From positions 128,001 to 192,000 of the forward strand of contig CP000067.1 in assembly GCA_000002445.1 (NCBI GenBank): 64,000 bases of DNA, written 5' to 3'. This stretch comes from Trypanosoma brucei (Eukaryota). The position numbers and the translations under genes were made by a program. How positions within the stretch are numbered: position 1 is the first letter of the stretch; the number at the start of each line of letters is the position of its first letter. Shown piece by piece: positions 41,130-62,046 of the stretch. Below the pieces are notes generated by a model. It saw only the letters and a program-made list of their open reading frames with translations. It was not told where the DNA came from and ran no database searches.

Positions 41130-43586
41130 TTATCGCCACAGTTGTCTCACACCTTTACGCATGGCAAAGTAGCGTGCCACAAGGGAAAGGACACCAAAGC
41201 TGCATGTAAGAGCTATCAGCAGAGTCTTGTTGAAATCACTGTTAAGGAGGTCAAACTCCTTTCCAGAAGAGGTGCGCACGTAAAAGAGGTCCATACCTGA
41301 AACGAGTACATGGCAGGAGCTTTCAAGATTTGTTGGTCGCGTTGCAATTAGAGTGGGACGTGCCGCTCGATACCTGTGGGTAACTATAGCAGTGCTCGGA
41401 ATGATCACATGTGTTAACTGCCCGGCGCCGTCACCTAAGGAAACCTGCCCACCAGCAAGTAGACGGTTAAGCCCCACGGAGGCAACCCTCCCGGACGTAA
41501 ACACAAACAGAAGACTTTTTCGTGCGATGGCGCCGAAGGACGTCGTGACGCTCATTTTGGCAACCCCACCGCCGTGCATACCGAGCACAGATCCTACCAC
41601 AACAGGTGGCCATGTAGCACGGGAACTGAATACGCGCTTGTGCCGGGAGAAAAACGATGAGATCACCTGAGGTGGTGTGGCACCCGTATCCTTGAAAAGT
41701 ACTGGGCCAACCTCGGTTTCAAACATCTCCCACACGCCAAGGGAATGGCGCATCTTTTCCACATCCATAAAGTGGTAAAGCACAGCGTGCTCCACAATGA
41801 GGATATGCACCGGTCCTTCTACATTTCGATGACGCATGGACGCAAGAACGCTTCCTGTGACAACATCGACAGCTGTTACAACAAGAGTTGGCATCTCGTC
41901 GTCAACGGGCTCGTAGTACGCCACTGCGAGGACGTTGCGCGTTGGAAACTTGCGACGTACCTCCTCCATACCACTGCTTTTATTCGGAAACACACGAATA
42001 TTATTCACCAATGAAGTGCGGAGTGCATCCTCACCCGTAGCAACGGCAATAATGGGAAATGGCAGTTGCACGGTCCAGAGTGGCGTCACAGACGGAGATG
42101 ATGAGGCTAGATAACCCTTGATGGTTCCCGTTGTCATATTCAAACTGAATACGTGCAACTTGGAATGGGGGATTTTTCCGTTCACCGCAAGCGAACGCTT
42201 GACGTCAAATGTAGGTGCAACAATCAGTGAGTCTTCGTGCTTTGTTGCCTCTACCACAGCACCGGTGACGACATTTAAAATTACCCGAATCTTAACCACA
42301 CCAAAAGAAGCGAATAAAGTAGCAGTATCCGCTCCGGATACCTCTAATTTTTCGAACGCTATATTCTCCACGGAAGCGGCGGTTGTCATCTCCAGCACAG
42401 TTTTAGATACATCGACAAGCACCTTCATGTTACTTCCCATTTCTGCCAGAGGAATCATATATACTACGCCACGTGTAGAAATTCCCAAGGCTTCTTTTGA
42501 CAAACCAAACCGATCTTCCTTCGATGAACTGTCAAGTACAACTACCGCCGCGAGTCTTGAAAGGCCTTCCCACCGTTCCCACTTCACCCCTCCGTTCTCT
42601 CGCACCACAACAAGATGGTCATTGGGTGCGCGAACGAGAGCCCATGCGCCGTCTCCATCGCCCTGCACAGCAAGAAGTATAGCGGGAGCACCTTTTGTCC
42701 CGCCCTTTAAAGGAACGTGAATACTCTTAGCAGGGAACTTAACCATGAAACCGTTGGGATCCGCCTGGCCGATTACGTATCCCTGAAACACGCCAGCCGG
42801 GTTTGTCATAACCGACGCAGCACAACCACTACAGTCAATTACTTCCTGTTCCACAGCGCCGTTTGTCTCGCGTTGAGGGCCATGTCTTACAAGTGTTACC
42901 TTGTGTGAAGAATATGCAACTGCCTCGGCCGAAGAGGTAACGTCAATACCACCCACAGCATCAACGCCTGTAATTTCGACCGCACCCTTAAGGGAGTAGC
43001 GATCGGCAGATAACCGTCGCACCACCCAAAGGTGAGCGTCGCTAAGGCGTAGGCCCTTCACGTCCTCCCCAATGGGAAATTGACCGAGAGTCTTAACTTC
43101 TTCGTCATCAGAATTCATATCTAACTCGAAGATATGTGCGTTTTTACCGTCGAAGGCGGCAAATCTCGCCTTACTATTTGTGATGCTTTTACACGACTCC
43201 ACGTCTGCGCCGGCTGGCAAGAGCAATTTGAAAGTGGTTTCTACTGCTCCAGTCCCTGCGTTAAGAACGTGCACTGCTCCTGACCGGGAGGAGACAAAGA
43301 CAGAGCCGCCAGTTACTCCAATGCACACACGTGGTTCGCTAAAAACTTTCCTCCACAGTAACTCTCCGCTGTCAAGGGAAAGTGCGGCAACCGCCCCCTG
43401 AGCAGACCTTATGTACACGTTGTTAAGTTTCAGCTTAGGATGCAGTGCGGCGCCCTCCACCTGGCCGACAAAGCGCAAAATCCAGTCACGTAACCCCTGC
43501 TCATCTTCATGTATGGCTTGGATTGGAACAATGAGTCCACAAATGAGGCACAACTTGAGCAACAGAAAGTATAAAGTGGGCCGCAT
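41130..43586 (-). CDS. EMC1: ER membrane protein complex subunit 1 (EMC1)
   Basis: 818 aa with N-terminal signal peptide. IHEDEQGLRDWILRFVGQVEGAALH...SAQGAVAALSLDSGELLWRKVF matches EMC1 (YEDQVGKFDWRQQYVGK...KNVIAALNSRTGEILWRHV). C-terminal TM helix LLIALTCSFGVLSLVARYF. PQQ-like beta-propeller content. Confidence 0.7.
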   Translation of the reverse strand: MRPTLYFLLLKLCLICGLIVPIQAIHEDEQGLRDWILRFVGQVEGAALHPKLKLNNVYIRSAQGAVAALSLDSGELLWRKVFSEPRVCIGVTGGSVFVSSRSGAVHVLNAGTGAVETTFKLLLPAGADVESCKSITNSKARFAAFDGKNAHIFELDMNSDDEEVKTLGQFPIGEDVKGLRLSDAHLWVVRRLSADRYSLKGAVEITGVDAVGGIDVTSSAEAVAYSSHKVTLVRHGPQRETNGAVEQEVIDCSGCAASVMTNPAGVFQGYVIGQADPNGFMVKFPAKSIHVPLKGGTKGAPAILLAVQGDGDGAWALVRAPNDHLVVVRENGGVKWERWEGLSRLAAVVVLDSSSKEDRFGLSKEALGISTRGVVYMIPLAEMGSNMKVLVDVSKTVLEMTTAASVENIAFEKLEVSGADTATLFASFGVVKIRVILNVVTGAVVEATKHEDSLIVAPTFDVKRSLAVNGKIPHSKLHVFSLNMTTGTIKGYLASSSPSVTPLWTVQLPFPIIAVATGEDALRTSLVNNIRVFPNKSSGMEEVRRKFPTRNVLAVAYYEPVDDEMPTLVVTAVDVVTGSVLASMRHRNVEGPVHILIVEHAVLYHFMDVEKMRHSLGVWEMFETEVGPVLFKDTGATPPQVISSFFSRHKRVFSSRATWPPVVVGSVLGMHGGGVAKMSVTTSFGAIARKSLLFVFTSGRVASVGLNRLLAGGQVSLGDGAGQLTHVIIPSTAIVTHRYRAARPTLIATRPTNLESSCHVLVSGMDLFYVRTSSGKEFDLLNSDFNKTLLIALTCSFGVLSLVARYFAMRKGVRQLWR

Positions 43587-44086
43587 CGCGTTTTGGGTCC
43601 CCTCTTCTCTCTCCTATTCTCTCGTATCCCCTTTGTTTTTGTTGTAAGTCTTTTTTTTCCCACCTCACTCTCTTCTTTTTTGGTTACCCCAATTTTTCTT
43701 TTTTTCTTTTACGTGTCGCTCCCCTTCTACACCTCCGTTCCAATAACCTTTCGGTATCAGCTGTGACAATTACGTTCCTTGATGATGCTACAGTGAAATA
43801 ATACCAAAAAGAAAAAAATATTCGCAACAAAATAACAATAGGGAAAGAGTGCATTAATTTAAAAAGTGGACAAACAATCCTTACACGTCCCTTACGGCAA
43901 TCCCTTAGAACACGCAACTGATAAAGAAAAGGAAAAGTGTGACAAACGATGTAAACAGCCTGAGACAGTAAGTCCAACGAATGGCTCCAATTCTTTTTCC
44001 TCCCTTCAATAGTAATAACAAACGGCCCCTTTTTTTCATTTTTTAGGTGCCCCCGCTGCTCCGTTACGCTGCATTTAAAAACAAAA

Positions 44087-45040
44087 CTATTCCTCCCCAC
44101 CTGTTGTCTCACCTAACAATTCCATCGCCTCGAGTAGAGTACGAGTGACAGCAGGTCCCTGAGCGCTAAGACCACTGATCCCGCCGCTGCGGTCACCCTC
44201 GAATAGTACAAATTTGGCTTTGGGAAAATGCTTCATAAAATCGCTCTTCGCCTCTCCTGAGAACTCCTCCGAGCCGCACTGAATGACTGTCACGGGTTTT
44301 GTGAAAATATTTTCCGGTCCCACATCGCTAAACCCACATAATGGCCCACGAAACTGAAACAACGTCTCGTTGAACTTAAATCCCACAGTTCCCTCCCGCT
44401 GCTCCACAGTCGAAAGAATAAGTGCCCTCTCCGCCTCATTAGGCACTCTTTTGTGCAAATGATGTTCGAGATCTGCGACGGAACTTATTTCTTTCGGGAT
44501 ATCTGAAATAAAAGAGGGAAGGGAGTAACGTGCCGGCTCACATGCCAGCAGATCTGATGGCCCATTTACAATAAGCACAAGGGAATCGATACCTGATTCA
44601 GGAGAGTGCAGTGCAGCCTGGCATGCGACAAGCGCACCAAACCCAATTCCAACCAACTTGGCATCCGCACGCAAGACTTGCTGTTGCAGAAGCATAATAT
44701 CAGCTGCACACGCCATTGTGAAGGCACGCCCTTCTTCGGGGCAGGGAAGTGATTTGGAATGGTTATGTCCCCGAAAGTCCACAGCAAATAACTCCAGTGG
44801 TACAAGTGGTGTAAGACCCGAACACGGTAATCTCCCGAGACTCTCATGCAAAAGCATTTGCCAGTAAGCAGAACTGCCGAACAGATCATGCAGAAGAATT
44901 GCTTTACTGGGCTTCCGGGAGTCGAGGTGCCACTTGAAGGTTGAAAGCCCATAATTCACCGGAAAGGGTCTTTCTTTAATTGGCAATGATGCAGAAGCAG
45001 CAACGTGGCCCCTCGAAAGCATGCGATTGATTACATTCAT
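44087..45040 (-). CDS. ABHD11-like alpha/beta-hydrolase fold protein with degenerate catalytic motifs (probable pseudo-hydrolase)
   Basis: The track start is TTG. The first ATG is at 45038-45040 (MNVINRMLSRGH...), giving 317 aa. LLHDLFGSS corresponds to the oxyanion HGLFGS motif. The nucleophile elbow reads VGIGFGALV instead of GHSMGG (Ser to Gly). No clear C-terminal catalytic His. Confidence 0.6.
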   Translation of the reverse strand: MNVINRMLSRGHVAASASLPIKERPFPVNYGLSTFKWHLDSRKPSKAILLHDLFGSSAYWQMLLHESLGRLPCSGLTPLVPLELFAVDFRGHNHSKSLPCPEEGRAFTMACAADIMLLQQQVLRADAKLVGIGFGALVACQAALHSPESGIDSLVLIVNGPSDLLACEPARYSLPSFISDIPKEISSVADLEHHLHKRVPNEAERALILSTVEQREGTVGFKFNETLFQFRGPLCGFSDVGPENIFTKPVTVIQCGSEEFSGEAKSDFMKHFPKAKFVLFEGDRSGGISGLSAQGPAVTRTLLEAMELLGETTGGEE

Positions 45041-46020
45041 GTTGTACGACTCGCAGCTGCTAAATCTTGGACCAAACAAGATTAATTGTTGGAATGGTGC
45101 TTCCCAATTATTCTGTTTTCTTTTCTCGAAAATCCAGCCGATGACACAACAACTCTACTTGCAACCCTCTCGGTACACAGAACCAAACTCGTCCCCCTTT
45201 CCTTGTACCCCTTGTTGATCTCAACAATTGTTGCAAATTATAAAAGTGAAATAAAAAGTAAAAAAAACATAACGCCTCAAAAAGATTAACGGAAATTTGT
45301 CTCGCATTCAAACGTAAAACGCAAACGCAGAAGTTAAAAATGTGAAGGAAGAAAGAGGAGGAAAAAAAACGAGCAAACTTAAAACGCAACAGTGAAGTGG
45401 GTGCTACTAGTAGTTAACCCGTGATTCTGCCCGCACACGCGAATGGGCATACCTATCCCCACATCCTAACCAGCACTGAGTGCTTAAACTGCGGGTAAAT
45501 CAAAAAAAGAAAGAAAGAAGCATAACCAAAAAAAAGTGAAAGGAGTCTCTTTTATACCAACGACCCGCAACACGCCAACAGGTATTGGTTATTCTCATGT
45601 AACTTCTCCCACACTCTTGCATGCACGTCACATCCTCCTTCTGAATATCCTCTAACCCCCTGTCGCCTCCAACCACAAAATAACATCCGAAATCTAATGT
45701 GAATGAGCCGGAACCTTCGCTCCAGAAAAGGGAGCTGAACGGATTTTCCTTCCAGAGACAACTAAAAGCCTCAACAATGCAACGCACTTGCGAGAAGCAT
45801 GAGGAAGGAGGAGAGTTTTTTTTCCCCCGTGAAAAGCGCCCCGTGTCGACGAAACACTGCAACGCTAAAAATAAAAAAAAAACGCCCTCGTATGAATAAA
45901 TACAAAATACAATACACACGCAAACTTTCGCATCGCGGGCCCAGGAAACGTTTTCGGAAAGTTTATTGCGCAACTATATGCAGCATTCCACTACCCGCCT
46001 TCTTTTTTCTTTTATGATTC

Positions 46021-47436
46021 TCACTGAGAACCCTCCTCCGGCGGAAAAGTTGGAACCGTCAGTGCCGAACTGATCTGCAAAATGCGCGCACTCCAACCTT
46101 CATCGATGAAAAGAAATGTACCTATTCTTCCAAGCTTATGGGCAACAGCAGCCAACACTTGCGCTTGGTGTGGAATGCAGAACTTTTCGTATTGCTCAGT
46201 AAACCGTGTGTATCCATCCGCGACACGTTGTTTTAATGATTCCCGATGCGCCTCCCCTTCGGTATCGTCCCTCCCGGGGGCAGGTTGGGCTAAAGCGTTT
46301 GATTCCATCTTTTTGAGCTGCGTAGCAGCATTGATGCAGGAAATTGAAAGATGGGAAGCAAACCAAAGCAAATCGCCAACCTCCCTCAAGCCTTCAGCCT
46401 CTTCCTTTTTGCTCAGATACATGAGATGGGAATCAATTTGTTCTGTTATTGCATGAAGGGCTAACATTACCGGGTCGCTCACACCCGATGACGGATATCT
46501 GAGGTCGGCTACAGGGACACGGGACATCCCTCCCTCACGATCGTTCCACTCAATTACCGCCGTGTTCCGATCTATGCTCTTCACCACACCCTCACGCCCA
46601 CCGTTCGCCTCATACCGAACGAAACATCCCTCGTGACATGCAGCGGCGGGAAGGGGAGCTCCAGCCGTCCGCTTGCATATATTCCGAGTACTTCTCCGTT
46701 TGGATGGTTCACCTACAAACCGCCTTGTCATTTTTTCCACGACGGCGCCGCACATCTGTAGAAGCCGCACCATTTCGCCATGTTGCACGAGGATGGAGCT
46801 AAGACGGGAAGAGACGGGACCTTCTTGTTCCCGCACCATCGCGAAACTGCTTAGTTTTCCAAGGAGGCCCAAACACTTCATTTTCACAATAGAAAGTAGA
46901 GAATTTTTCCTTGCTGCCTCCCACGAATCGCGGAACTTTCTCCATCCGTCTTCGTCAAGCGTTGTGAAAGCCTTCATTAACTCACATTCATGAATCGCAC
47001 CGATATGGGATATGGCATTAAGAGTCAGTTGAAGTCGCCTTAGCCGTTGTCTTACCAGTGAGTTCTTCTTTGCGTCAAGGCCACTCACACCGTCAAAGTG
47101 CGCTGTAAGTTTGTCGATCGTCCCATTGACTTCCTTCTCTGGAATGGGTGGAAAGATTATACCTGGAAACTCTGTCAGCATCTGTGTAGCAAACCACTCA
47201 AAATCGGAATAACGATGCCATGTGCAATAGTCGATGTAGCCATCGCCTTTAATAAAGTTGCTCTGCGTACTGTTTGGGAAAATGAGAGGCGGATTCTGGT
47301 AACTTTCCAGAAAGCTGCGCGTCATCATTTTATACGTCCAGTGAGAAAAGAAGAGGACCTTATCATTCTCAGCGAACACGCGCTCCGCATTTGCAACATA
47401 GAACTCCAGCGGTGGCTGAGCGGGGTTTTCGGACAT
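46021..47436 (-). CDS. Sorting nexin (PX-domain protein, probably SNX-BAR type)
   Basis: The track start is TTG. The first ATG is at 47434-47436 (MSENPAQPP...), giving 471 aa. PX-domain signature RYSDFEWFATQMLTEFPGIIFPPIPEK (R[RY]SDF...L...PG..PP.P.K). Helical remainder consistent with a BAR region. Confidence 0.65.
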   Translation of the reverse strand: MSENPAQPPLEFYVANAERVFAENDKVLFFSHWTYKMMTRSFLESYQNPPLIFPNSTQSNFIKGDGYIDYCTWHRYSDFEWFATQMLTEFPGIIFPPIPEKEVNGTIDKLTAHFDGVSGLDAKKNSLVRQRLRRLQLTLNAISHIGAIHECELMKAFTTLDEDGWRKFRDSWEAARKNSLLSIVKMKCLGLLGKLSSFAMVREQEGPVSSRLSSILVQHGEMVRLLQMCGAVVEKMTRRFVGEPSKRRSTRNICKRTAGAPLPAAACHEGCFVRYEANGGREGVVKSIDRNTAVIEWNDREGGMSRVPVADLRYPSSGVSDPVMLALHAITEQIDSHLMYLSKKEEAEGLREVGDLLWFASHLSISCINAATQLKKMESNALAQPAPGRDDTEGEAHRESLKQRVADGYTRFTEQYEKFCIPHQAQVLAAVAHKLGRIGTFLFIDEGWSARILQISSALTVPTFPPEEGSQ

Positions 47437-47778
47437 TGCTCTTTGTTCAAGTTGTGAATGAGAGTGCGGCAAGGGGAGAACAAGAAAAAAAATGGGTTGG
47501 CGTGAGGAAAAAACAAAAACGAGTACAAGCCCTACGTTCGGTGCCGTTTCGTCTCCACTCCGTTCTCCCTTTCTATGAGTCCATCCACCTTTATCACGGG
47601 AGTCACGGCCTCATATACAATTGGACCATACCTGACACCTCGGGACTGCAGAACCACGGACACTTGTCGACAGTTTACATAAACACAACTGAGAGCAACA
47701 TTGCCACAGCAGGTGGAGTACGAATTCGGTAAGTCCCCTGGACTCTCAACATAACAAGTACAGAGGTATCTCCCTCCT

Positions 47779-47883: not shown

Positions 47884-50800
47884 TTACTTTGCCTTCACAT
47901 TATGATGGATCACACCATATGAAATATGCAATTGGGTACTGGGGCCCGCCGCGTCTCCGTTCGAGCCCTTGACAGCCTCCGCAAGTGCCTTTCCGCCGCC
48001 TCCACCAACAAAAGACAAACACCTCTTGCTAAACACATTACATTCACTCGCTGTAAGGGTAAAGATATTGCTCAATACGTGATGTACTCCACGCGCGAGG
48101 AGGAGGATCGAAACAACGTAATTCTTCTCGTAAAAAAAGTCCATGTAAGCCCTGCACGTGTCACACCCTTGCTCACGACAGTATGACGCGTCATTGGTGG
48201 CCATGGCTATGAGTACTGTTTGAAGATGATCTAGAGAGAGCTCGGCAATGACGGAGGGCTTGATAATGTCAGAGAAGGACCCACATGCACTCACCAAAAC
48301 ATTGGCATAAGCCTTGTTAGCAAAAATACGATGCACATAGGCTAGAGATGGCCTGCTTGAAGAGCCCTGCCCATCCTTGACGAAGGTAACGATTTCAGCG
48401 TTAGACGTTTTCGTTCGTCCTCCACCAAAGATATACTGCAGCGCTTCCTCGTTCTCGCCAAACGGATCAATAATATAGGCCACTCCGTTTGATTGAGGCT
48501 TCCCTGTACGCAACGCCGTCTTCTGCCGTAAGTTTAAAACTGATAACTCTCTGTGAACGGCCATAAAAGACGAAAGCTCAGGAAGCTGCTCGAAGGGAAG
48601 TGGCTGAAGGATGGGATCCAGGCAGAGATATAGGCTGCATGATGCCGCTCGTTGAGATGAGAATAAATCACTGAAGTCCCCAAGCAAAGGAAATACCACT
48701 GTCCTCACCTTCTCGAGGTACGAGTGAAAAACCGACCCCCACTTCGCATCAGGAGACCGCTCACCGGCAGAAGGTCCGGCGGCTACTTCTACTTTCTTGA
48801 GACGCTTAAGTTCCTCAATCTGAGATGTACACTCACGGAGAGCCCCCATGTCCAACTCCGCCCGTCGGGAACACACCTCACCGTCCTGTCTTCGAAAAGC
48901 CACTAGGAAGTACGATGTGGTTCCCTCGCGCACAGCACTGAGGGTGCATATGTCCGACAGCAGAGGGTCAGCCTTATTAGGCTCCGCCGGCCATGCTCCC
49001 ACAAGGTCAAAACGCCTCCACATGCTAGAAATCTCCATGAGATTGTTCCGCAGGGAATCAAAAGCTTTGGTGTTGACCAGGTAGGGCGCATCCATCTTTG
49101 TCTTGTTTACCAAACGAATAAGTTCAGCCTCAGGTGTGGTGTGAGTCAAAGAAGTGACAAGATCGCTCACAAAACCGTACATAGCCGCCGTTTCCGCGTA
49201 CTCGATGGCCGTCCCAGCAGCGTTAAAGTTACCAGACAACATAAAATTGTGAGCCAAATAAATGTAACATTTCGCCATTTGTTTGTACTCAAACATGTGT
49301 CTCGCTTGCCGAACAGCTGCGAGCAGAAGCATCTGCAAGTTACTATTAATTTCTATCCATGCGTTCGCAGCAAGGCGATTTGGATCTTCAACATGAATAC
49401 TAGCGAGTTTCGCAGCGCGGCGTTCCGCTACCGACATCCTCCGAGGAACTGATGGGTGTGGTACAGAAATCGTGATTTTTGACCACTGTGCCGTTAGAAA
49501 TGCGTTCTCGCGTTCATTTACGTCCCCACTGAAAGTAGTGTTTACTGAAGCCTCAGGACTTTCCATCGCTCTGGTAGCCGCCGTAAGCCTCCGGCTAAAC
49601 TCACTTAGTGCAGCGATGATGCTGGCTTCCATTTGAACAGAAGATACGGTGCCAACACCACCCATCGCACGATAGAGCAAGGCTTCAATGTGTGGCGTAG
49701 AAGTGTTGACCATATAGTTAAGTGGAATGCCGAAGTGACTTAGAGAACTCGCAACCTCATTATCATGACCACAAATCCCCTCCTGTGAGGGTAAAGCCGC
49801 ATTAGCGCTATCGTTAAGCATCCTACTCTGCTCGTAGAGAGCGGGGTCACGCATGTAACTGGCAACATAGCCCTCCAACTCCACCGGTCCCCCAGTGGGA
49901 ATGCCCAGGTCCGCGACCGACAGCGCGCTGAAACGTTGTGATATAAAGTTCTTCAGCAACTTCCGTTCCAAGCAGTTGCGTGCACACATTACTAAAACCT
50001 CATCGTACGCCGCTGCCGCGGAAGGACACGTGGTAACGTCACCCCCCAGAGCTAAGACTGGAACGACAGCGTTGACCTCGCTCTGTAACATGTCTGCCAC
50101 TTTAAGGATCTCAGAGTACTCATTGAACAATCGCTCGGGTAACGCTTTGTCCACACCCCCCTTCCCAGTTGCCAGCACGTCATCCACGCACGGCCGCAAA
50201 ATCTGACGCACCCGAAGCGACACCAGTCGACTCTTCCAATCCGCGTATTGGTCCAGCTGCGAGCAAACTTCATCAAGCAATCCCTTCACATCACCCTCTC
50301 GGGGCCCTCCAGGAAATAGTGTGTCAAAGGGCCGACGAAGAAATGCAACAAACCGAGGGGCGCACCTCTGTAGAAGAACCTTATGGCACATTTCGGTTGT
50401 GTCCTTCTCGATGTCACCTTCACCAACTTCTTCAAGGCGCCACAGCAACCGCGTCAAAAGCTGGCGTACGAAAGCTACGGCCTCGGCGACCTTATCACAA
50501 GACAGGAAACCGTCGATATGCACCAATTGCAGTTCCGTCCACGCAGCAACCGTGAGTGAAGTGGGAAGCCCCGTTCCTTCGCCATCACCCATATCTTCAG
50601 TTTTTGTCTCTTCTTCAGTACTGTCCTCCGCACTCGCTTCCTCACTTGTAGGGGGGTCCCATCGACCCCGAAGAATACTAGCACGAGCCTCCAGCAGATG
50701 ACACCGTGCCAACGCACCTCTATCTCCCGTCCGAGAAGCACACTGTTTTACCTTTGCCTTCCACAGTAAAGCTTCTTGCACGCGACCAAGGGTAAAAAGG

Positions 50801-53800
50801 TCCTCGGCTTCACTCAGAATAAACCGATGTGTACTCCCAACAAAGTTGCTGAAATCTAGTGGTCCAGAGGACGGCCACGGTACTGACAGTGCAGGAGTCT
50901 CCGTGGATAAAAGCACCTCATTAACGCTCGACCAGCATTCCGCATCCGGCGGTTCTACGTTATACGCATCACACACCTCAGCCCATCCACATCGTGCAGC
51001 TGATATGAATCCCTTTAGACGAACAGCTCGCACGGCAGCCCTCCCGCGAGGATCAGACTCATCATATCGCCAGTATATGCAGAACTCGACCCAGCTCAAA
51101 ATGAGAAACACATACAGCTCCATCCCATCTTCAAGGAGGTAATCACAAACATCTAACAACATCCCCCACAGTCTATGCGTGTTCAAGGCGAGACCGTCTT
51201 TGCACAGATCACGTATGATAATCGCATGTTGAGGATTGGCATGAAACCCCCGCCATTCGTACAATGTCTCCGGAAGGTGCAACGGGTCCACTTTTACGCC
51301 TCTGATATCCTCTCCTCTGTGAATCTGCAGGAGAACTGCAACAACTTTCCAGCACGATAAGACATAATAGAGAAGGGTCGATGCACAACACCGCTTGTAG
51401 ACAAACGGCCTACTAGCGCATGGCGTGATCGGAGCCACTACAAACAAGAAGTAGAGAAGGCGCAGAGCCGTCAAAGTCTCCAGCAGGGACGGTAAGTCTT
51501 TTTGCTTATCGACCGGAACAACGTTTGTGCAGGTGAGACTCTGAGCAATGGCAAATGTCCGCCCCACCATCGTGCCTGTGAGAGCGTGACGGAGGGCAGG
51601 TGAAACATCTGTATTGCGCCGACCAGCACTTTTATTTAACCACGCACTGAGTAGCATACTATCCACGCGTTCCAGGTCGCTTAGTCCATTCATAAGCAGT
51701 GATATAAGTTCGCTTTTCGTAACGGCATTGCGTCCTGCAAGCCATTCCGCCATGCTGAGAACCAAATCGGCTCTTTGAACGGGTTTACCTTCCAATATCT
51801 TCAATGCCTGATTCCATGCTCTCATGCCCTCGGAGATATCATGCGCGTTCTTCGCAACGGCAACGCACACCGCTGCCTCCACCTCTGCGTCCACAGTTCT
51901 AGCTTTCTCATGCAACTCTGATGTCGAAAGCCTCAACTTCGTACGGAGTTGCGCCTCGTATGCACACAAGGATCCATGATATCTTGACGGAAGCACGCGC
52001 AGAAGCTCATGCATTTGTTTTATCCCCTCGTCATAATTTTCGTCCTCCAGCAGGCTTGTAAAAAGATAGCCGCCTAGTGTGCTGGTCAGTGTGCATAAGT
52101 CATCGAATTCAGCGTCACACCTGCCATTGGTCCGCGACCGTAAAAATTTATTAACTATCCTCAAGATAGGTGGAGAAAGGAGAATTCGAAGCCCCGACTG
52201 CAGCACTCGATAAGAAGCCCGAGAAATGGATGTGGCAACGCGGCACAAAGCGCGATAAGCCTTTGTTATTTGGGTAATTTGCGCTTCTGGTATGGAGCGG
52301 GATGCCGCCACCGCGCTGTTTGTTATGGCCACAAGAACCCTTTTCTCAAACTCAAGACGATGCGTCCTGTCGGCTCCAACCCCGAGATGCAAGAAAAGCG
52401 TGGCCTCATGAAGTAAAATGTCTGCGTACCAATACCAATCCATGTCACTTGGCTTCGGTTGCATCCCACCATTCGAATTGGCCACGACGGAGCCCTTTAA
52501 GTTACCTAAATACATGACTGATGGGGACGGTTGCTGAGTCGAAACAACGGTGCTTGCTAAAGATTTATCCCTACCTGAATTCACAGTTATAAGAGATTTG
52601 GTGCCCCACCCAAGTTTGCCTTCATGGTACAACCGATCGGCGGTACGGCAGATTTCGAGCGTTACTCTTTCATTTTGGGGTATTTGCACGCTGTGAGATG
52701 CCAATCGAGCACACAACTCTACTGATGGGTCGGCTCTAAGCATATCTAAGCATTCCGTGTTAACCAAATGCCGTCTCTCGTCGAGTTCAATAGGTCCATT
52801 CAAGCGACCCAACAAAAAGAGCAACTGCTCTTGCGGGTGAGTAGAGGTTTCGTGGGTTCTATCAAGAAGTCGATTGATGCACGGAAGAATAAGAGAGAAA
52901 TTCTTCCTCCGGGATGGTAGTGACCATTTGCTCATTATTTGGTGGCAGGCCTCCGCCGCCTGCTTGAGTACACTATTATGTGCCTCACATATGGGATACA
53001 AATAAGTTTTGCGCATTGTTTCGGCCAAAGACTCACAGTGAAGCTCACCATTAACTTCTCCCTTCGCACTGATGTACGTCTGTACAAGCGACATAACGTA
53101 TCCAAAGCCGATACTGTCAAATAGTTTGTATTCACCCATGGGATCAGCGTTTACTTGACCCAATGCAAGAGAAAGGTCACGTAGGGTTGCTGCAGCAGGA
53201 AGAAACAAGCCCTTTTTGAACATTTCAGTGTTTTGATTGATCAACGCAGTGCATGCGTTAAGGACAATCCACCCCCCACCGTATCCTGCTGCGCTCAGCC
53301 TAGCACCAAGTTGTGCTGCTTTGGATATGTGAGACATACCATCTTCATGGGTGGCATCACCTAAGGCACGGGGAGATGTTTGTCCTCGCTTTTCCAGCAA
53401 CTCCGACATAACCAAATGAGCTTCAGCCTTCATGGCGAGCAAGTCTCTAGCGAAGCCATTATCTGGAACAGCAATCCGAGCGAGACCCTCCGCAGCTTTA
53501 ATAATAATCTCATCAACCGCAGGATCATTAGTCGTCGAAGCCTCCTTGAGTAACAGGTAGTAAACATTAGGAGTACTAAAATCTTCGAATGTAAACGGTA
53601 CCCGTTCATCAACGGTTTCGCGTACAACGTCTTGTTTTCGACTTTTTCCGCCTTTATTTTTCTCCCCGTTTACCGATACGTTCTTCGTCCTCGTCTCGGC
53701 TACGGATTCCGTGCGAGTAATCGGAGGAAGTCTATCAGCCGCCGCCTGCAAAAGAGGGACACGATTAGCCGATGCTAGCCGAGCTTGCTCGATAAGATGA

Positions 53801-55395
53801 ACGATATGATCCCCATCCGAAATAAAGGAAGTGCCCTCATGTGCCTTCCGCACCACGGCACGGCGCCTTAACCACAGAAGGGCAAACTCCATGGGATAGG
53901 CGGAGGTATTGTCCGCACTTCCCGACAACTGCTCTACTGCCAAAGCCTTGTCAATCTGTTCAATGGTAGCATTCATATTTTCCTCTTCAAACTCCGCCAA
54001 TGCTGATTCATATGCCGCACGAACAAAAAGTCGGTTTAGCCTGCTGTTGCACAACCTTAGCAGCATCACTATTCTACTCAATGTGAGACGCAACCTCCCA
54101 CGAGTTTGGGGTTGCAAGAGCGGAAGACACAAATTCCACAGCACCACACAACCAACCTCAATTGCGTACATGCTTTCCGATACATCTACAGACGTACGAG
54201 CGGCATCTATCACGTCCTCGACGTGGCCGATGCATGCAAACAGCTTTTCCGCCATATTCTTTGTAAGATAACCAGCGTCTAACGCCTTGCTTGCGGCCAG
54301 CGAGCCACAGTCACGAGCCCTCATGATGGCTTTGGCGTATTCAGTGAACAATCGGGCGCGGGCATTATCGCCATTCAGAAGTTTTGGTAAAATTGTATTA
54401 CACGTGTCATCCGCACCGCACATGGCTAACGCAAGGGCAACCTCACTGAGTACATCTGAGATAATCGCAGGATCGCGGAACGCCGCCTCTGCTTCAGCGG
54501 CCTTACGGCCCTTTTGTTTCACTTCCTTCTTCTCGGGGTCGCCGAGGAGTTTTTCAGTTGCCTGAATGAGCTCCTGCTTAGCGCTTGAGTCATCTGTTGC
54601 ACCACAGAAAAATGAATACACAGCAGCAAGTGCCTGAAACACAGGTCTGGTATTATCTTGCTTCGTCCGGTTTGATGATGTACTGGCTGTGAAGGCAACC
54701 TGAATGCGGTAAAATTGTAATTGAAGTCGCTCAGAACCCGTCTTTGCAACAAGTTCTGCACCGGACACAATCTGATTGAGCGCATCCTGAACCCTTCCGG
54801 TAGCCCGCAAGCAGACGGCATAACGCACAATCCACTGCAGCTGAGTATGAATTCCTCCAAGTGAAAGCTTTTCATGCAAAGTTACAACCAACACCAGAAT
54901 ATCCAACATGCTGTTGCTTATTATTCGACCGCAAACATCTTGAATAGACAGCCAGAGGTAGTCGATACCTGCGATAAGGGTCTCCGGTTCCTTCGGCCAC
55001 TCCTCTAGTACAATCTTTATACCTGAAACAATCTTCGTCGCGCAACGAATGTGCGCTGCCAGTTTAGCCCTACCACGCAGCGAGTGAGGCACACCACTCA
55101 AAGCTACGAGAGCATCACAATAAAGAGCCCGTGCCTCCAGTGCCTTCGTTTGAGCCCGCCTCCCTGTGTACTTCTTCAAACAAGCCCCTGCTAGTGCCCA
55201 CTCCTTCTTCTCAATGGCAGCCTCCGTGCAGAGAATGTACAACTCACTCGATACATTCCGCTCCAGTGACGGGTCCCCTTCAGAAGACTCTTCAAACTCT
55301 TGCAACATTTTGTACGCTGCGTGCACGGCTTCAGCCGTGTAACTGCTGCGACTGGCACGCAGTTGTTGTTTCACCGCATTGGATACATACGCCAT
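47884..55395 (-). CDS. Very large (2503 aa) alpha-helical protein with separase (peptidase C50)-like C-terminal region
   Basis: ATG at 55393-55395. Long helical/TPR-like N-terminal body. C-terminal ~240 aa read LCLDPILQPLPFEQLPELSSFMAVHRELSVLNL...GVAYIIDPFGENE...FVKDGQGSS...NVLVSACGS, resembling separase LVLD..LQ.LPWE.LP.L....V.R.PS...L...FYVLNP...GHGxG...LLxGCSS. The Cys is in the expected position. The expected His may be replaced by Gln. Confidence 0.4.
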   Translation of the reverse strand: MAYVSNAVKQQLRASRSSYTAEAVHAAYKMLQEFEESSEGDPSLERNVSSELYILCTEAAIEKKEWALAGACLKKYTGRRAQTKALEARALYCDALVALSGVPHSLRGRAKLAAHIRCATKIVSGIKIVLEEWPKEPETLIAGIDYLWLSIQDVCGRIISNSMLDILVLVVTLHEKLSLGGIHTQLQWIVRYAVCLRATGRVQDALNQIVSGAELVAKTGSERLQLQFYRIQVAFTASTSSNRTKQDNTRPVFQALAAVYSFFCGATDDSSAKQELIQATEKLLGDPEKKEVKQKGRKAAEAEAAFRDPAIISDVLSEVALALAMCGADDTCNTILPKLLNGDNARARLFTEYAKAIMRARDCGSLAASKALDAGYLTKNMAEKLFACIGHVEDVIDAARTSVDVSESMYAIEVGCVVLWNLCLPLLQPQTRGRLRLTLSRIVMLLRLCNSRLNRLFVRAAYESALAEFEEENMNATIEQIDKALAVEQLSGSADNTSAYPMEFALLWLRRRAVVRKAHEGTSFISDGDHIVHLIEQARLASANRVPLLQAAADRLPPITRTESVAETRTKNVSVNGEKNKGGKSRKQDVVRETVDERVPFTFEDFSTPNVYYLLLKEASTTNDPAVDEIIIKAAEGLARIAVPDNGFARDLLAMKAEAHLVMSELLEKRGQTSPRALGDATHEDGMSHISKAAQLGARLSAAGYGGGWIVLNACTALINQNTEMFKKGLFLPAAATLRDLSLALGQVNADPMGEYKLFDSIGFGYVMSLVQTYISAKGEVNGELHCESLAETMRKTYLYPICEAHNSVLKQAAEACHQIMSKWSLPSRRKNFSLILPCINRLLDRTHETSTHPQEQLLFLLGRLNGPIELDERRHLVNTECLDMLRADPSVELCARLASHSVQIPQNERVTLEICRTADRLYHEGKLGWGTKSLITVNSGRDKSLASTVVSTQQPSPSVMYLGNLKGSVVANSNGGMQPKPSDMDWYWYADILLHEATLFLHLGVGADRTHRLEFEKRVLVAITNSAVAASRSIPEAQITQITKAYRALCRVATSISRASYRVLQSGLRILLSPPILRIVNKFLRSRTNGRCDAEFDDLCTLTSTLGGYLFTSLLEDENYDEGIKQMHELLRVLPSRYHGSLCAYEAQLRTKLRLSTSELHEKARTVDAEVEAAVCVAVAKNAHDISEGMRAWNQALKILEGKPVQRADLVLSMAEWLAGRNAVTKSELISLLMNGLSDLERVDSMLLSAWLNKSAGRRNTDVSPALRHALTGTMVGRTFAIAQSLTCTNVVPVDKQKDLPSLLETLTALRLLYFLFVVAPITPCASRPFVYKRCCASTLLYYVLSCWKVVAVLLQIHRGEDIRGVKVDPLHLPETLYEWRGFHANPQHAIIIRDLCKDGLALNTHRLWGMLLDVCDYLLEDGMELYVFLILSWVEFCIYWRYDESDPRGRAAVRAVRLKGFISAARCGWAEVCDAYNVEPPDAECWSSVNEVLLSTETPALSVPWPSSGPLDFSNFVGSTHRFILSEAEDLFTLGRVQEALLWKAKVKQCASRTGDRGALARCHLLEARASILRGRWDPPTSEEASAEDSTEEETKTEDMGDGEGTGLPTSLTVAAWTELQLVHIDGFLSCDKVAEAVAFVRQLLTRLLWRLEEVGEGDIEKDTTEMCHKVLLQRCAPRFVAFLRRPFDTLFPGGPREGDVKGLLDEVCSQLDQYADWKSRLVSLRVRQILRPCVDDVLATGKGGVDKALPERLFNEYSEILKVADMLQSEVNAVVPVLALGGDVTTCPSAAAAYDEVLVMCARNCLERKLLKNFISQRFSALSVADLGIPTGGPVELEGYVASYMRDPALYEQSRMLNDSANAALPSQEGICGHDNEVASSLSHFGIPLNYMVNTSTPHIEALLYRAMGGVGTVSSVQMEASIIAALSEFSRRLTAATRAMESPEASVNTTFSGDVNERENAFLTAQWSKITISVPHPSVPRRMSVAERRAAKLASIHVEDPNRLAANAWIEINSNLQMLLLAAVRQARHMFEYKQMAKCYIYLAHNFMLSGNFNAAGTAIEYAETAAMYGFVSDLVTSLTHTTPEAELIRLVNKTKMDAPYLVNTKAFDSLRNNLMEISSMWRRFDLVGAWPAEPNKADPLLSDICTLSAVREGTTSYFLVAFRRQDGEVCSRRAELDMGALRECTSQIEELKRLKKVEVAAGPSAGERSPDAKWGSVFHSYLEKVRTVVFPLLGDFSDLFSSQRAASCSLYLCLDPILQPLPFEQLPELSSFMAVHRELSVLNLRQKTALRTGKPQSNGVAYIIDPFGENEEALQYIFGGGRTKTSNAEIVTFVKDGQGSSSRPSLAYVHRIFANKAYANVLVSACGSFSDIIKPSVIAELSLDHLQTVLIAMATNDASYCREQGCDTCRAYMDFFYEKNYVVSILLLARGVHHVLSNIFTLTASECNVFSKRCLSFVGGGGGKALAEAVKGSNGDAAGPSTQLHISYGVIHHNVKAK

Positions 55396-57079: not shown

Positions 57080-58468
57080 TCAAAACCTTCTCTTGACCCA
57101 CCCAGGATTTTTCTTGTAAATCTCACTAAGGTTCGACTTGTCAAAGCGTAGAAGTGTGGTAAGCACGGGAAAAAGGTTCTTGGCCACGTTGGTGTCTCCG
57201 CTGGAACAGAGGAGCTGCACAACCGTGAACCTCAAATAAGTTGCTAGCTGCCCATCAAATACCAAACTGTTCTCTTGGTCTTTCGTTGTATTCGACTGGT
57301 GCCGTGTGGCGACAAGGCGTCTCCGTGTTGCACACAGTTCATCTGACAACCGACTCACATCCCCTTCAAGTTCTGCAATACGAGAAAGTGCCTCAGGAAG
57401 CGTTGAGGGTTTATTTTGCCCATTAAAGTCCTTAACACTGCAACTCCCCAAGACCGGGCCACCTACACCTGAGTGGGTTCTCTTGACAGCAGCTAGTTCT
57501 TGCGTTAACTTTTGATTTTCTTCCTGAGCTCCCCTCAATTCTTCCTGAAGGGACTTTAAATGATCCAACAGCTCCCCGTACGCTGCGTCATCTCGCTGCT
57601 CCGACTGTCCCCTAGCCTGTGCGCCTTCCCCTAAATGTTTATTCCCGGTCTCCGCTGTTTCTAATGCCCTTTCCTCCAACTCGGCACGCAGTTCCGCCAT
57701 ATCTTGCTCATACCGCGACATCAATCTCTCCATTTCGTCACGGTGTTGGTCAAAAATGATAGATTCCCGGACGGTAAACTCGTGCCGCATATTTTCCCTT
57801 TCCTCTTCCAACCGCTCTTCAAACGCATTAATCTGCTCCGCGTTTGGTCGGCTTGCCATTGCCGCTTGAGAGGCTTCAAATGATGCCTTGGCCTCCTCCA
57901 AAGTTTCCAATCGGTTCTGTAAGGTTTCTAGGGCTTGATCACGCCGCTCAATGGCAGATTTGCGTTCCACTAATTCCGCCTGCGCGCCAGTAAGTGTCTC
58001 ACGGAGACCGGCCAGCTCCTGCTCGAGGGCTTCAGTAGTCTTCTTTTGCATTCGCAACGTTTGGGCAGTCCTTCGCTTGTGCTTTTCTAACTCACGCCAT
58101 GTTCCCACAGCAATGTCAAGCGCAGCATCAGACTTGTCCAAAAGTATTTCGACTAATGCATCCGATGAAGCGGTCACCCATGCCCCGACATGACTAAAAT
58201 AGTGAGACTCCGCAAAACTGCTGCATTCGGGCACAGCACCCGAAGTGGATGCAGCCGCTGTGGCAACACTCTTTGCATTTTGCAACTGCTGACTGAGTTG
58301 ATCGTTGGCTGCTCGGGATTCTTCCAGTTCAGTGGTAAGTTCTATAATTCTGTTACGCAGCTCCGTGACGCCTACTTGAGTCTTCTCCTTCCAGACCTGC
58401 ATCCGGTGTTTGGCTTTCTCAAGCTCTTCGCGCAGTTGCTGCACTTCACTATTTACAACAGCGTCCAT
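57080..58468 (-). CDS. GRIP-domain coiled-coil golgin
   Basis: 462 aa. Almost entirely heptad coiled coil (LEE/ELR-rich). C-terminal ...GQLATYLRFTVVQLLCSSGDTNVAKNLFPVLTTLLRFDKSNLSEI resembles the GRIP domain ((E)YLKNVLLQFL....L..LL.F). ATG at 58466-58468. Confidence 0.5.
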   Translation of the reverse strand: MDAVVNSEVQQLREELEKAKHRMQVWKEKTQVGVTELRNRIIELTTELEESRAANDQLSQQLQNAKSVATAAASTSGAVPECSSFAESHYFSHVGAWVTASSDALVEILLDKSDAALDIAVGTWRELEKHKRRTAQTLRMQKKTTEALEQELAGLRETLTGAQAELVERKSAIERRDQALETLQNRLETLEEAKASFEASQAAMASRPNAEQINAFEERLEEERENMRHEFTVRESIIFDQHRDEMERLMSRYEQDMAELRAELEERALETAETGNKHLGEGAQARGQSEQRDDAAYGELLDHLKSLQEELRGAQEENQKLTQELAAVKRTHSGVGGPVLGSCSVKDFNGQNKPSTLPEALSRIAELEGDVSRLSDELCATRRRLVATRHQSNTTKDQENSLVFDGQLATYLRFTVVQLLCSSGDTNVAKNLFPVLTTLLRFDKSNLSEIYKKNPGWVKRRF

Positions 58469-59982: not shown

Positions 59983-62046
59983 TTAACCCCAAGTAAGTGG
60001 GCGAATAAGTCTGAGGAGCTGATACACACATCGTCGTAAGAGGAAATTAGTTCGATGAAGGGCCATGAGTCGAACCTCTTCTCCTTTCTCCTTCAGCAGA
60101 AGTGTGTAGAGGTTGAGATGTGTCTCGTGGTCCTCGAGTATTCGTAGGTCCGGCACATCGTCACGCTCCCTAAAGGCCGAAAAGGCGCAACAATGTGTCT
60201 GATACCTTATACTGTGCCACTCACCATCCGCCTCTGCTGTTAGGTCGGGGGAGTCTTCGGTGCCTAAATACACCTGCTTCGACATACGGAAGAGTGCCAG
60301 GTCTGCGTCTTCTCCGCACTTATTGTGCCGCGAACTAGCTATGATGTAAAAGAGACAGAACTGTGCAATGTCTGCATACACTTTCTCCTCCAGCTCCGAG
60401 GACTTGGGCACAATGTCCTCAATAAACTCGGCATCTTCGTCGCGCAACATGAAGTTAAAGCCTGCTTGGGAGAGTAATCTCACCAGCGTAGCGGGCTCCA
60501 ACCAATCCGCTCGCAAAGCCGCCAGCTCCGGGTCTCCAGGGGAAATAAGTTTGCACTTGGCATCGCAGATAAGTATACGGAACTCGCGGTCACTTCCTTC
60601 GCCCCGGTGACGGCCTTCTAACACCATCATCACCTGATCGAAGCTCACCGGCTGCAGCCGCCACTGCTCATACGGCACATCAAACCCTTTCCCCTGCAAA
60701 ATGGTGAAGGTGCCAAATTCCCCTGTGGCGAAGCTACACATTCGCTCCGGTCCCGTTGAATCTGGAGAACTTGATGTGTGGCTGCACGGCTCCCATTCTT
60801 TTGTCTTCTCTACCCATTTGCCAATTAGAAGCGTGGGCTGGCGCATGACAATCGTGGAGGGAACCTCAAATGACACCCGCAGAGCGGGATTTTCATCAGT
60901 GGCCTCTAGAACAGGTGGAGGGTACGGAACAACATGTAACTTATGTGCTTCCTCCGTCTCAGAGCGATAAAGCCAGTCACCGCTTTGCTTTGGTCGCTCC
61001 GTAAAGCTCAATAGATCTATTTTTATCACACAAGGCAGTGCGTAGTATTCACGCCCGCCGGAGCCCCGACATCCATACGGGTCAAAACGGAGCTGGATGA
61101 CGCGCAATGCAACGTTTTCCTTGCTCAACCCAAGCGCCTTAGGAAGCTTCGGTAGCGCACTGGATTTAGGATCCAGTCGCATGGAAACGACGGGAAATAC
61201 AAGTGAAGCAAAGCTGCGAGTTGTTTCCTTCACCTTCACCCAAAGTCCAAATTTAGCGACAGGGTTCGCTGATGGCACGGCCACCGTGAGAAACTCACTG
61301 TCAGGTCCATCTAAAATCACATCGTAGTTTAGCAAAGTATGAATTGTGACAAAGTCAAACGCAAACATCACCTGCTCATACACGTTCCCAATATTCTCAC
61401 CGAAAAACTTCAGATCCTCTGTCTTTCCAAGTGTAAGGCAACGATCCGCTTCCAGACGGATTGTCTCCACCAGATCGTACGCCATGACACACCGATTAAG
61501 CTCCTCATTCAACATCTTCCGACGTGCTGCTGGAGGAATTCCAAGTTCCCCTTGGTGAAATCGGTGAACACGCAGACTGCTATTGGAATTGTCGCGTTTG
61601 ATATTGACTTCTACAGGCGGGGAATAATGACTGTAATGCTCCTCACTGTCCCTCCAGACGCTCAGAAATGTGTTGATTGCACTCTGAGACCTTATCGGTG
61701 GAAGGCGTGACGCCTCGGGAATGAGGCTCCACAGACGGTGTTTCTCGCATTCCTTGTACGCGAGCTGCTCCTGCTCCACAAGTTCGTCTTCAAAGGCGGT
61801 GTAGACGTCTTGATCCAACCGAAGGCGTTCCTTTTCAGCGGCCTTGTCGAGTGAAAACTTCTGAAGAGCCACCCGATCGGTCTGCTCCATCTTCAGTCGC
61901 TCACGCTCATGCAGTTTGTACAACTTATCAGCCGTCTCCACCGCCTTATTAATGGCGATTTGCGCCGGCTTAAGCTTTTTCGGCTTGTCATCCTTCCTGT
62001 CGTCCTTACCACCCCTGCCTATCACTTTCACAGTTTTAGGTGGCAT
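59983..62046 (-). CDS. Conserved hypothetical protein (687 aa) with Lys-rich N-terminus and coiled coil; possibly an axonemal/flagellar component (weak CASC1/IC97-like impression)
   Basis: ATG at 62044-62046 (MPPKTVKVIGRGGKDDRKDDKPKKLKP...). Lys/Glu-rich coiled-coil N-terminal ~120 aa followed by a large globular region. The family assignment is an impression only. Confidence 0.55.
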   Translation of the reverse strand: MPPKTVKVIGRGGKDDRKDDKPKKLKPAQIAINKAVETADKLYKLHERERLKMEQTDRVALQKFSLDKAAEKERLRLDQDVYTAFEDELVEQEQLAYKECEKHRLWSLIPEASRLPPIRSQSAINTFLSVWRDSEEHYSHYSPPVEVNIKRDNSNSSLRVHRFHQGELGIPPAARRKMLNEELNRCVMAYDLVETIRLEADRCLTLGKTEDLKFFGENIGNVYEQVMFAFDFVTIHTLLNYDVILDGPDSEFLTVAVPSANPVAKFGLWVKVKETTRSFASLVFPVVSMRLDPKSSALPKLPKALGLSKENVALRVIQLRFDPYGCRGSGGREYYALPCVIKIDLLSFTERPKQSGDWLYRSETEEAHKLHVVPYPPPVLEATDENPALRVSFEVPSTIVMRQPTLLIGKWVEKTKEWEPCSHTSSSPDSTGPERMCSFATGEFGTFTILQGKGFDVPYEQWRLQPVSFDQVMMVLEGRHRGEGSDREFRILICDAKCKLISPGDPELAALRADWLEPATLVRLLSQAGFNFMLRDEDAEFIEDIVPKSSELEEKVYADIAQFCLFYIIASSRHNKCGEDADLALFRMSKQVYLGTEDSPDLTAEADGEWHSIRYQTHCCAFSAFRERDDVPDLRILEDHETHLNLYTLLLKEKGEEVRLMALHRTNFLLRRCVYQLLRLIRPLTWG

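What the first reader, a model, noticed from the sequence alone, without database searches (positions are those of the whole stretch)
47887..48610. Separase-like C-terminus on a 2503-aa protein, with a possible His-to-Gln change at the catalytic dyad
The last ~240 residues read LCLDPILQPLPFEQLPELSSFMAVHRELSVLNL ... GVAYIIDPFGENE ... FVKDGQGSS ... (about 28 residues) ... NVLVSACGS. Separases have ...LVLD..LQ.LPWE.LP.L....V.R.PS...L... then FYVLNP.., then a GHGxG histidine strand and about 26 residues later an LLxGCSS cysteine strand. The Cys aligns. The His position appears to be Gln (DGQGS), unless the nearby YVHR supplies it. A 2500-aa helical N-terminal body also fits separase architecture. 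If the His is truly absent, this would be a separase-like pseudo-protease or a divergent enzyme.
Basis: inference. Interest (0 to 1): 0.65.

Follow-up and report, generated by a model that had tools for sequence, protein, structure and literature searches.

The report
Dead separase-like domain on trypanosome CFAP46
The 2503-residue protein is not a separase but the Trypanosoma brucei copy of CFAP46, a scaffold of the flagellar central apparatus, and its C-terminus is a real separase-type protease fold that has lost both catalytic residues.

Summary

'ACGS' (Cys2371) sits where separase has G-H-G. The catalytic Cys position, about 28 residues later, is Ala2399 or Thr2400. 'DGQGSS' is an earlier loop. 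Both dyad residues are therefore missing.

The dyad is missing in almost all CFAP46 sequences examined, so this is most likely a pseudo-protease used as a structural or binding module of the C1d projection. I found no paper describing this domain. A 2025 preprint states that T. brucei has no FAP46 homologue.

The parts
47884..55395 (-). Complete CDS (stop codon included) of the 2503-aa T. brucei CFAP46/FAP46 orthologue
   Evidence: ORF list and translation. Identical to P0050 = XP_844212.1/Q57ZZ0, 'hypothetical protein, conserved', T. b. brucei TREU927.
54919..55395 (-). N-terminal TPR_CFAP46_N domain (residues 1-159)
   Evidence: Pfam PF25439, E 2.7e-59, 199.8 bits against a cut-off of 27. 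phmmer hit to mouse CFAP46 9ijj_A over residues 8-491, E 7.5e-12.
47887..49383 (-). C-terminal separase-like module (residues 2005-2503) that was modelled
48997..49371 (-). Helical, TPR-like lead-in (residues 2009-2133)
48640..48951 (-). Three-stranded sheet plus long helical hairpin (residues 2149-2252), in the position of separase's substrate-binding (pseudo-protease) domain with its helical insert
   Evidence: Model elements E145-176, H179-202 and H211-241. The correspondence to the separase substrate-binding domain is inferred from its position ahead of the catalytic-type domain and from the alignment lengths.
47914..48636 (-). Caspase-haemoglobinase-fold domain (residues 2254-2494), equivalent to the separase catalytic domain
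48583..48627 (-). LCLDPILQPLPFEQL, the first strand and loop of the domain. It matches separase 'LVLDKQLHVFPWESL'.
   Evidence: Aligned. L2263, P2267 and E2269 are at least 90% conserved in the family.
48358..48375 (-). It is a variable loop after strand E329-333 and is not the His strand.
   Evidence: Q2343 is N in T. congolense and Y in T. cruzi. In the hhalign output this stretch faces a gap in separase, ahead of 'RPPTEPEF'.
48283..48285 (-). Cys2371, at the position of separase's catalytic His (G-H-G becomes A-C-G)
   Evidence: HMMER aligns 'ngcGr' with 'IGHGS' and 'FGHGS'. hhalign aligns C with h. It is the last residue of strand E359-367. The column holds C in 11/37, L in 8 and P in 7; His occurs only in P0045.
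48196..48201 (-). Ala2399-Thr2400, the position of separase's catalytic Cys (LLMG-C-SS corresponds to LIAM-A/T-ND)
   Evidence: HMMER aligns consensus 'lllDrgvn' with 'VLLMGCSS'. This is the end of strand E389-395. Which of the two residues corresponds depends on where a one-residue deletion is placed. Residues 2397-2400 are A-M-A-T, so there is no Cys in any register.
48169..48195 (-). NDASYCREQ (residues 2401-2409), the family signature N-[DE]-x-S-[YF]-R-R-[QE] immediately after the dead Cys position
   Evidence: Conservation in the family: N 27/37, S 28/37, R2407 35/37. It has no counterpart in the separase alignments. A role lining the vestigial cleft is inferred.

Best explanation
The gene encodes the T. 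brucei orthologue of CFAP46 (Chlamydomonas FAP46). CFAP46 is a large, mainly helical scaffold of the C1d projection of the flagellar central apparatus. Its last ~500 residues form a separase/CHAT-type module: a TPR-like lead-in, a sheet with a helical hairpin, and a caspase-fold domain. This module is homologous to the protease end of separase but has lost the His-Cys dyad. In T. brucei the His position is Cys2371 and the Cys position is Ala2399 or Thr2400. Shown: the identity of the family, the fold, the homology to separase and the absence of the dyad. Inferred: the domain works as a rigid protein-protein interaction module, probably holding a partner segment in the vestigial substrate cleft, and so helps assemble or anchor C1d rather than cleaving anything.

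For: Dead site. C2371 aligns with His, and A2399 or T2400 with Cys. No His of the domain is conserved even among the 11 sequences that share C2371, apart from H2390 (7/11), which aligns with a non-catalytic His of the fungal separase. The solved FAP46 has Val at the His position and mouse CFAP46 has Met and Thr at the two positions.

Selection for something other than catalysis. D2310 is conserved in 37/37 sequences, R2282 in 36/37, G2372 in 35/37 and R2407 in 35/37, while the two dyad columns vary freely.

Function of the family. The fap46 mutant lacks C1d and beats abnormally (review PMC7999657). Human CFAP46 variants cause primary ciliary dyskinesia (PMC11651342). Mouse CFAP46 contacts SPAG6, LRRC43 and CFAP74 (PMC12297659).
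Against: There is no direct evidence that the T. brucei protein is flagellar; localisation and phenotype were not available. The residue mapping rests on sequence-profile alignments and on the predicted secondary structure, because residue-level structural superpositions could not be inspected, so the Cys position is uncertain by about two residues. The peptide-clamp idea is analogy only. Cys2371 is strictly conserved in 11/11 related sequences that include the kinetoplastids (T. brucei, T. congolense, T. cruzi, Bodo, Porcisia), and this conservation is unexplained. The T. brucei sequence alone scores below Pfam's Peptidase_C50 threshold (14.7 against 27.8 bits).
Confidence: 0.88

Rival explanations
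1. It is the ordinary T. brucei separase, the enzyme that cleaves cohesin.
For: It has a separase-like fold and a similar overall plan, with a long helical body followed by a C-terminal caspase-like domain.
Against: The N-terminus is a CFAP46 domain. The closest sequences and structures are FAP46 and CFAP46, ahead of every separase. Both catalytic residues are absent. The literature names Tb927.1.3120 as the separase homologue, whereas this protein is XP_844212.1, whose T. b. equiperdum copy carries the locus tag DPX39_04...; chromosome 4 is my inference from that tag.
Confidence: 0.01
2. It is an active but unconventional cysteine protease that uses Cys2371 with a non-canonical partner residue.
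For: Cys2371 sits in the active-site region and is invariant in 11/11 related sequences that include the kinetoplastids. A few distant members carry G-H-G (P0045) or a Cys near the canonical position (Chlamydomonas FAP46, P0031, P0035).
Against: No member examined has both residues in the profile-aligned columns. There is no conserved His to pair with Cys2371. Outside the C2371-sharing group the column holds Leu, Pro, Ala or Gly. To my knowledge, clan CD peptidases require the His-Cys dyad on adjacent strand ends.
Confidence: 0.05
3. The domain descends independently from a bacterial TPR-CHAT protein and not from a shared ancestor with eukaryotic separase, so it is a CHAT relative and not a separase sister.
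Confidence: 0.15
4. The resemblance is chance or a modelling artefact.
For: The single-sequence Pfam hit is sub-threshold (E 0.017). The AF2 model depends on a 37-sequence alignment.
Confidence: 0.01

Closest known systems
CFAP46 / FAP46 (TTC40), subunit of the C1d projection of the ciliary central apparatus (PDB 7N6G, 7SQC, 9IJJ)
   Different: It is very divergent in sequence. A direct phmmer search finds only the mouse N-terminus (E 7.5e-12) and not Chlamydomonas FAP46. Eleven related sequences, including the kinetoplastids, carry Cys at the former His position. T. brucei has a one-residue deletion at the former Cys strand and has Cys in place of the first Arg of the RR motif.
Separase (separin, MEROPS family C50, clan CD)
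   Different: There is no catalytic His or Cys. The sequence is below Pfam's C50 threshold. The N-terminal domain is different. The gene differs from the T. brucei separase Tb927.1.3120. The family's known role is structural and ciliary, not cohesin cleavage.
Bacterial TPR-CHAT proteases (Csx29 of type III-E CRISPR 'Craspase') and other CHAT-domain proteins
   Different: These are active proteases that retain the dyad, are much smaller, and are prokaryotic defence proteins. Their similarity to this protein is weaker than that of separases.

Membership tests
CFAP46/FAP46 | N-terminal CFAP46 TPR domain (Pfam PF25439) | tested here: met
   E 2.7e-59, 199.8 bits against a cut-off of 27, residues 1-159
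CFAP46/FAP46 | Conserved C-terminal module shared with FAP46 and CFAP46 of solved central-apparatus structures | tested here: met
CFAP46/FAP46 | Very large protein (about 2300-3100 aa) with both end domains in one chain | tested here: met
   2503 aa. Full-length homologues are 2333-3113 aa with the module at the C-terminus.
CFAP46/FAP46 | [quoted passage not shown] | not testable with these tools
   No localisation data were found. The T. brucei central-apparatus cryoEM preprint did not resolve C1d.
Separase (MEROPS C50) | Caspase-haemoglobinase fold domain preceded by the separase-type substrate-binding domain | tested here: met
Separase (MEROPS C50) | Catalytic His in the G-H-G motif | tested here: not met
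   The position is Cys2371 (A-C-G) in the HMMER and hhalign alignments.
Separase (MEROPS C50) | Catalytic Cys in the G-C-S-S motif about 26-27 residues after the His | tested here: not met
   The position is Ala2399 or Thr2400. Residues 2397-2400 are A-M-A-T.
Separase (MEROPS C50) | Pfam Peptidase_C50 score above the gathering threshold | tested here: not met
   14.7 bits against 27.8 for this protein. At least one homologue just passes (P0025, 28.1 bits), and the best member reaches E 2.6e-10.
Separase (MEROPS C50) | Being the locus annotated as T. brucei separase | tested here: not met
   The separase homologue is Tb927.1.3120 (PMC2610385). This protein is XP_844212.1, a chromosome 4 locus by the DPX39_04... 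tag of its T. b. equiperdum copy.
CHAT domain (Pfam PF12770) | Sequence match to the CHAT profile | tested here: not met
   This protein has no CHAT hit at E up to 10. Of 37 homologues, 13 hit at E up to 1, best 1.1e-4, and all those inspected are below the 24-bit cut-off.
CHAT domain (Pfam PF12770) | Fold similarity to TPR-CHAT proteases | tested here: met

The most novel reading that the evidence does not exclude
CFAP46 would be an ancient sister of separase, present in the last eukaryotic common ancestor and sharing its whole plan of a helical solenoid plus a protease-type C-terminal module. It would have been recruited into the ciliary central apparatus. Its dead substrate cleft would clamp an extended segment of a C1d partner, in the way that securin occupies separase. 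At least one protist lineage would still be an active intraciliary protease: P0045 has G-H-G and a Cys exactly 27 residues downstream, the same spacing as in the fungal separase.
Probability: 0.2. Interest if true: 0.7.

Novelty: new variant of a known kind. Interest (0 to 1): 0.5.

Why it matters
The result assigns a family and a likely role to a 2503-aa T. brucei 'hypothetical protein'. It contradicts a 2025 preprint, which says T. brucei has no FAP46 homologue and reads this as lineage-specific loss or replacement in the C1d region.

It also gives CFAP46, a human primary ciliary dyskinesia gene described so far as having no recognised domain or only coiled coils, a defined C-terminal domain with a testable surface, the vestigial protease cleft.

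Finally, it links the enzyme that triggers anaphase to a structural ciliary protein. That bears on how the two arose from TPR-CHAT-like ancestors and adds a large, ancient pseudo-protease to clan CD.

Tried and rejected
- The word-indexed homologue search returned only two trypanosome fragments, both with the single sequence and with the 37-sequence profile, so no names or taxonomy came from it. The exhaustive representative search supplied the family instead.
- The exact-match contig look-up found nothing.
- The afdb50 fold library was unavailable, so AlphaFold-database annotations could not be checked.
- Model coordinates are not exposed. No residue-level superposition on separase was possible, and no inspection of what fills the cleft in 7SQC or 7N6G.
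- Gui et al. 2022 and Brown et al. 2012 are not held, so I cannot exclude that they mention the fold.
- Five literature searches combined CFAP46, FAP46 or TTC40 with separase, caspase, CHAT or peptidase C50, or separase with central apparatus and C1d. None found anything relevant.
- H2355 (YVHR) was considered as a substitute His and rejected. It is unique to T. brucei (1/37) and lies in a helix.
- P0045 was considered as a dyad-retaining member and left open. Its Cys falls on the family's conserved Asp column, two residues before the profile-aligned Cys position. Without the two-residue gap the spacing is exactly that of separase (and my own counting).

Full report
**1. What is there**

The window carries a long run of ORFs, all on the minus strand. 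ORF 47884-55395 (-) encodes 2503 residues.
- LCLDPILQPLPFEQL at residues 2257-2271
- AYIIDPFGENE at 2306-2316
- DGQGSS at 2341-2346
- YVHR around H2355
- VSACGS with C2371

The protein is identical to XP_844212.1/Q57ZZ0, 'hypothetical protein, conserved', of Trypanosoma brucei brucei TREU927. It differs by 1-13 residues from the copies in T. equiperdum, T. b. equiperdum and T. b. gambiense and in one unnamed assembly.

**2. Which family**

Pfam gives one strong hit, TPR_CFAP46_N at residues 1-159 (E 2.7e-59). It also gives one weak hit, Peptidase_C50 at residues 2250-2313 (E 0.017-0.068, below the 27.8-bit threshold). A phmmer search of PDB sequences finds mouse CFAP46 (9ijj_A, E 7.5e-12) through the N-terminus.

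An exhaustive HMMER search of 1.84 billion representatives with the C-terminal 499 residues, aligned with the T. congolense and T. cruzi fragments, gave 47 hits. The full-length ones are 2333-3113 aa and carry the matching region at their C-terminus. Among those whose source names an organism are Bodo saltans, Porcisia hertigi and Artemidia motanka.

I aligned 37 of these C-termini (A2). A profile of A2 hits Chlamydomonas FAP46 (7n6g/7sqc) at E 7e-55 and mouse CFAP46 at E 2e-46. The protein is therefore the T. brucei orthologue of CFAP46/FAP46, a subunit of the C1d projection of the ciliary central apparatus.

**3. Is the separase resemblance real?**

Yes, by several independent measures:
- The A2 profile hits C. 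elegans separase (5mz6, E 6.4e-6), C. thermophilum separase (5fby, 5fc3, 5fc2, about 3e-4) and human separin (about 4e-3).
- Scanned one by one, 29 of the 37 members hit Pfam Peptidase_C50 (best 2.6e-10) and 13 hit CHAT (best 1.1e-4). At least one member just passes Pfam's own C50 threshold.
- hhalign of A2 against a 166-residue fragment of the fungal separase gives 94.6% probability and E 7e-8.
- An AlphaFold2 model of residues 2005-2503 built on A2 is confident, with pLDDT 90.8 and pTM 0.92.
- Foldseek against the PDB ranks FAP46 and CFAP46 first (E 2e-15 to 5e-12). Next come human, worm, yeast and fungal separases (2.6e-11 to 1e-6), then TPR-CHAT/Craspase (1e-7 to 2e-5) and the CHAT anti-sigma factor DdvA. 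The next hit is at E 0.014.

The order of elements in the model is a helical lead-in, a three-stranded sheet with a long helical hairpin, and then an alternating strand-helix domain. That is the order found at the protease end of separase.

**4. The catalytic residues**

HMMER and hhalign both align the strand ...NVLVSA-C-GSF with separase ...LLYFG-H-GSG. Cys2371 therefore occupies the catalytic His position and is the last residue of model strand E359-367.

The family consensus 'lllDrgvN' aligns with separase 'VLLMGCSS'. The next strand of the T. brucei model, E389-395 (TVLIAMA), ends at Ala2399. Depending on where a one-residue deletion in T. brucei is placed, the Cys-equivalent is Ala2399 or Thr2400. 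Residues 2397-2400 are A-M-A-T, so no register supplies a Cys.

H2355 is unique to T. brucei (1/37) and lies in a helix. Among the 11 sequences that share Cys2371, no His of the domain is conserved except H2390 (7/11). That residue aligns with a non-catalytic His in the fungal 'LDHCR'.

**5. The loss is family-wide**

In A2 the His column holds C (11), L (8), P (7) and others, with His only in P0045. The Cys column holds G (14), A (10), S (5), T (3), N (2), C (2) and I (1).

In the two solved proteins, Chlamydomonas FAP46 has Val at the His position and Cys at the Cys position. Mouse CFAP46 has Met and Thr (read from the alignments).

Other positions are almost invariant: D2310 in 37/37, R2282 in 36/37, G2372 in 35/37 and R2407 in 35/37. 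The motif N-[DE]-x-S-[YF]-R-R-[QE] directly after the dead Cys position is a family signature with no separase counterpart. This pattern points to selection for fold and surface and not for catalysis.

**6. Likely mechanism**

Two things are shown: the protein is a CFAP46 orthologue, and it carries a dead separase-type module.

From the literature:
- The Chlamydomonas fap46 mutant lacks C1d and beats asynchronously and more slowly (PMC7999657).
- Human CFAP46 variants cause primary ciliary dyskinesia (PMC11651342).
- In mouse sperm, CFAP46 contacts SPAG6, LRRC43 and CFAP74 (PMC12297659).
- C1d is mostly helical and sits on the PF16 spring.

It is inferred that in T. brucei the protein is a C1d scaffold. 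It is also inferred that its C-terminal pseudo-protease is a rigid docking module, possibly gripping an extended partner segment in the former substrate cleft, by analogy with securin in separase. I could not test the cleft because coordinates are not exposed.

**7. Comparison with what is known, and novelty**

The real T. brucei separase homologue is Tb927.1.3120 (PMC2610385), so this gene is neither that enzyme nor a trypanosome-specific duplicate of it.

I found no paper that links CFAP46, FAP46 or TTC40 with separase, caspase or CHAT folds. A 2021 review lists no domain for FAP46, and a 2024 clinical paper's CFAP46 figure legend mentions only two coiled-coil motifs. The central-apparatus structure papers I could read do not mention the fold. 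Two key papers were not available, and the link is latent in Pfam scores for some orthologues. I therefore rate the finding as a new variant of a known kind and not as categorically new.

A 2025 preprint on the T. brucei central apparatus lists FAP46 among proteins with 'no clear homologs in T. brucei' (PMC12154619). The present evidence contradicts that. Direct pairwise search does miss Chlamydomonas FAP46, which explains the oversight.

**8. Verdict**

It is wrong on the residue mapping and on the identity of the protein. Interest is moderate at 0.5. The result is a useful annotation and correction and a neat evolutionary link, on a protein family whose structure is already solved.

Noticed in passing
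window 23603-36301 (-): A 4232-aa dynein heavy chain ORF with the full set of dynein motor domains. It includes a DYNC2H1_AAA_dom hit, which suggests the cytoplasmic dynein-2 (IFT dynein) heavy chain.
   Followed up: partly
window 59983-62046 (-): A 687-aa ORF with a Casc1_N domain (E 1.3e-8). From memory, CASC1 is an axonemal inner-arm dynein component, which would make this another flagellar gene in the same transcription unit.
   Followed up: no
window 1-64000: All 17 substantial ORFs lie on the minus strand, and the only plus-strand ORF overlaps one of them. GC skew is negative in every 2-kb bin, and the first 4 kb are AT-richer (GC 0.41). This is consistent with one kinetoplastid polycistronic unit.
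   Followed up: no
window 41130-47472 (-) and 57080-58468 (-): The neighbours of the CFAP46 gene are unrelated housekeeping genes: EMC1 (818 aa), an alpha/beta hydrolase (330 aa), a PX-domain protein (483 aa) and a GRIP-domain golgin-like protein (462 aa). There is no functional clustering with CFAP46.
   Followed up: partly
window 47884-55395 (-) versus the literature: The bioRxiv preprint 2025.05.29.656921 (PMC12154619) lists FAP46, together with FAP54, FAP221, FAP297 and others, as having no clear T. brucei homologue. FAP46 clearly has one, so the other 'missing' C1d proteins deserve profile-based searches.
   Followed up: partly
P0045 (2338 aa, unnamed metagenomic eukaryote), residues about 2130-2180: This is the only CFAP46 homologue seen with a separase-like 'YFGHGRF'. 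It also has a Cys (LALLACNTT) exactly 27 residues after the His, the same spacing as in C. thermophilum separase. In the multiple alignment, however, that Cys falls on the family's conserved Asp column, two residues before the profile-aligned Cys position. It may be a dyad-retaining member.
   Followed up: partly
window 48283-48285 (-), Cys2371: The Cys at the former His position is invariant in all 11 related sequences that carry it (T. brucei, T. congolense, T. cruzi, Bodo, Porcisia and others). Elsewhere the column holds Leu, Pro, Ala or Gly. Cys2258 in LCLDP shows the same clade-specific pattern (11/11 against 15/37). The reason is unknown.
   Followed up: partly
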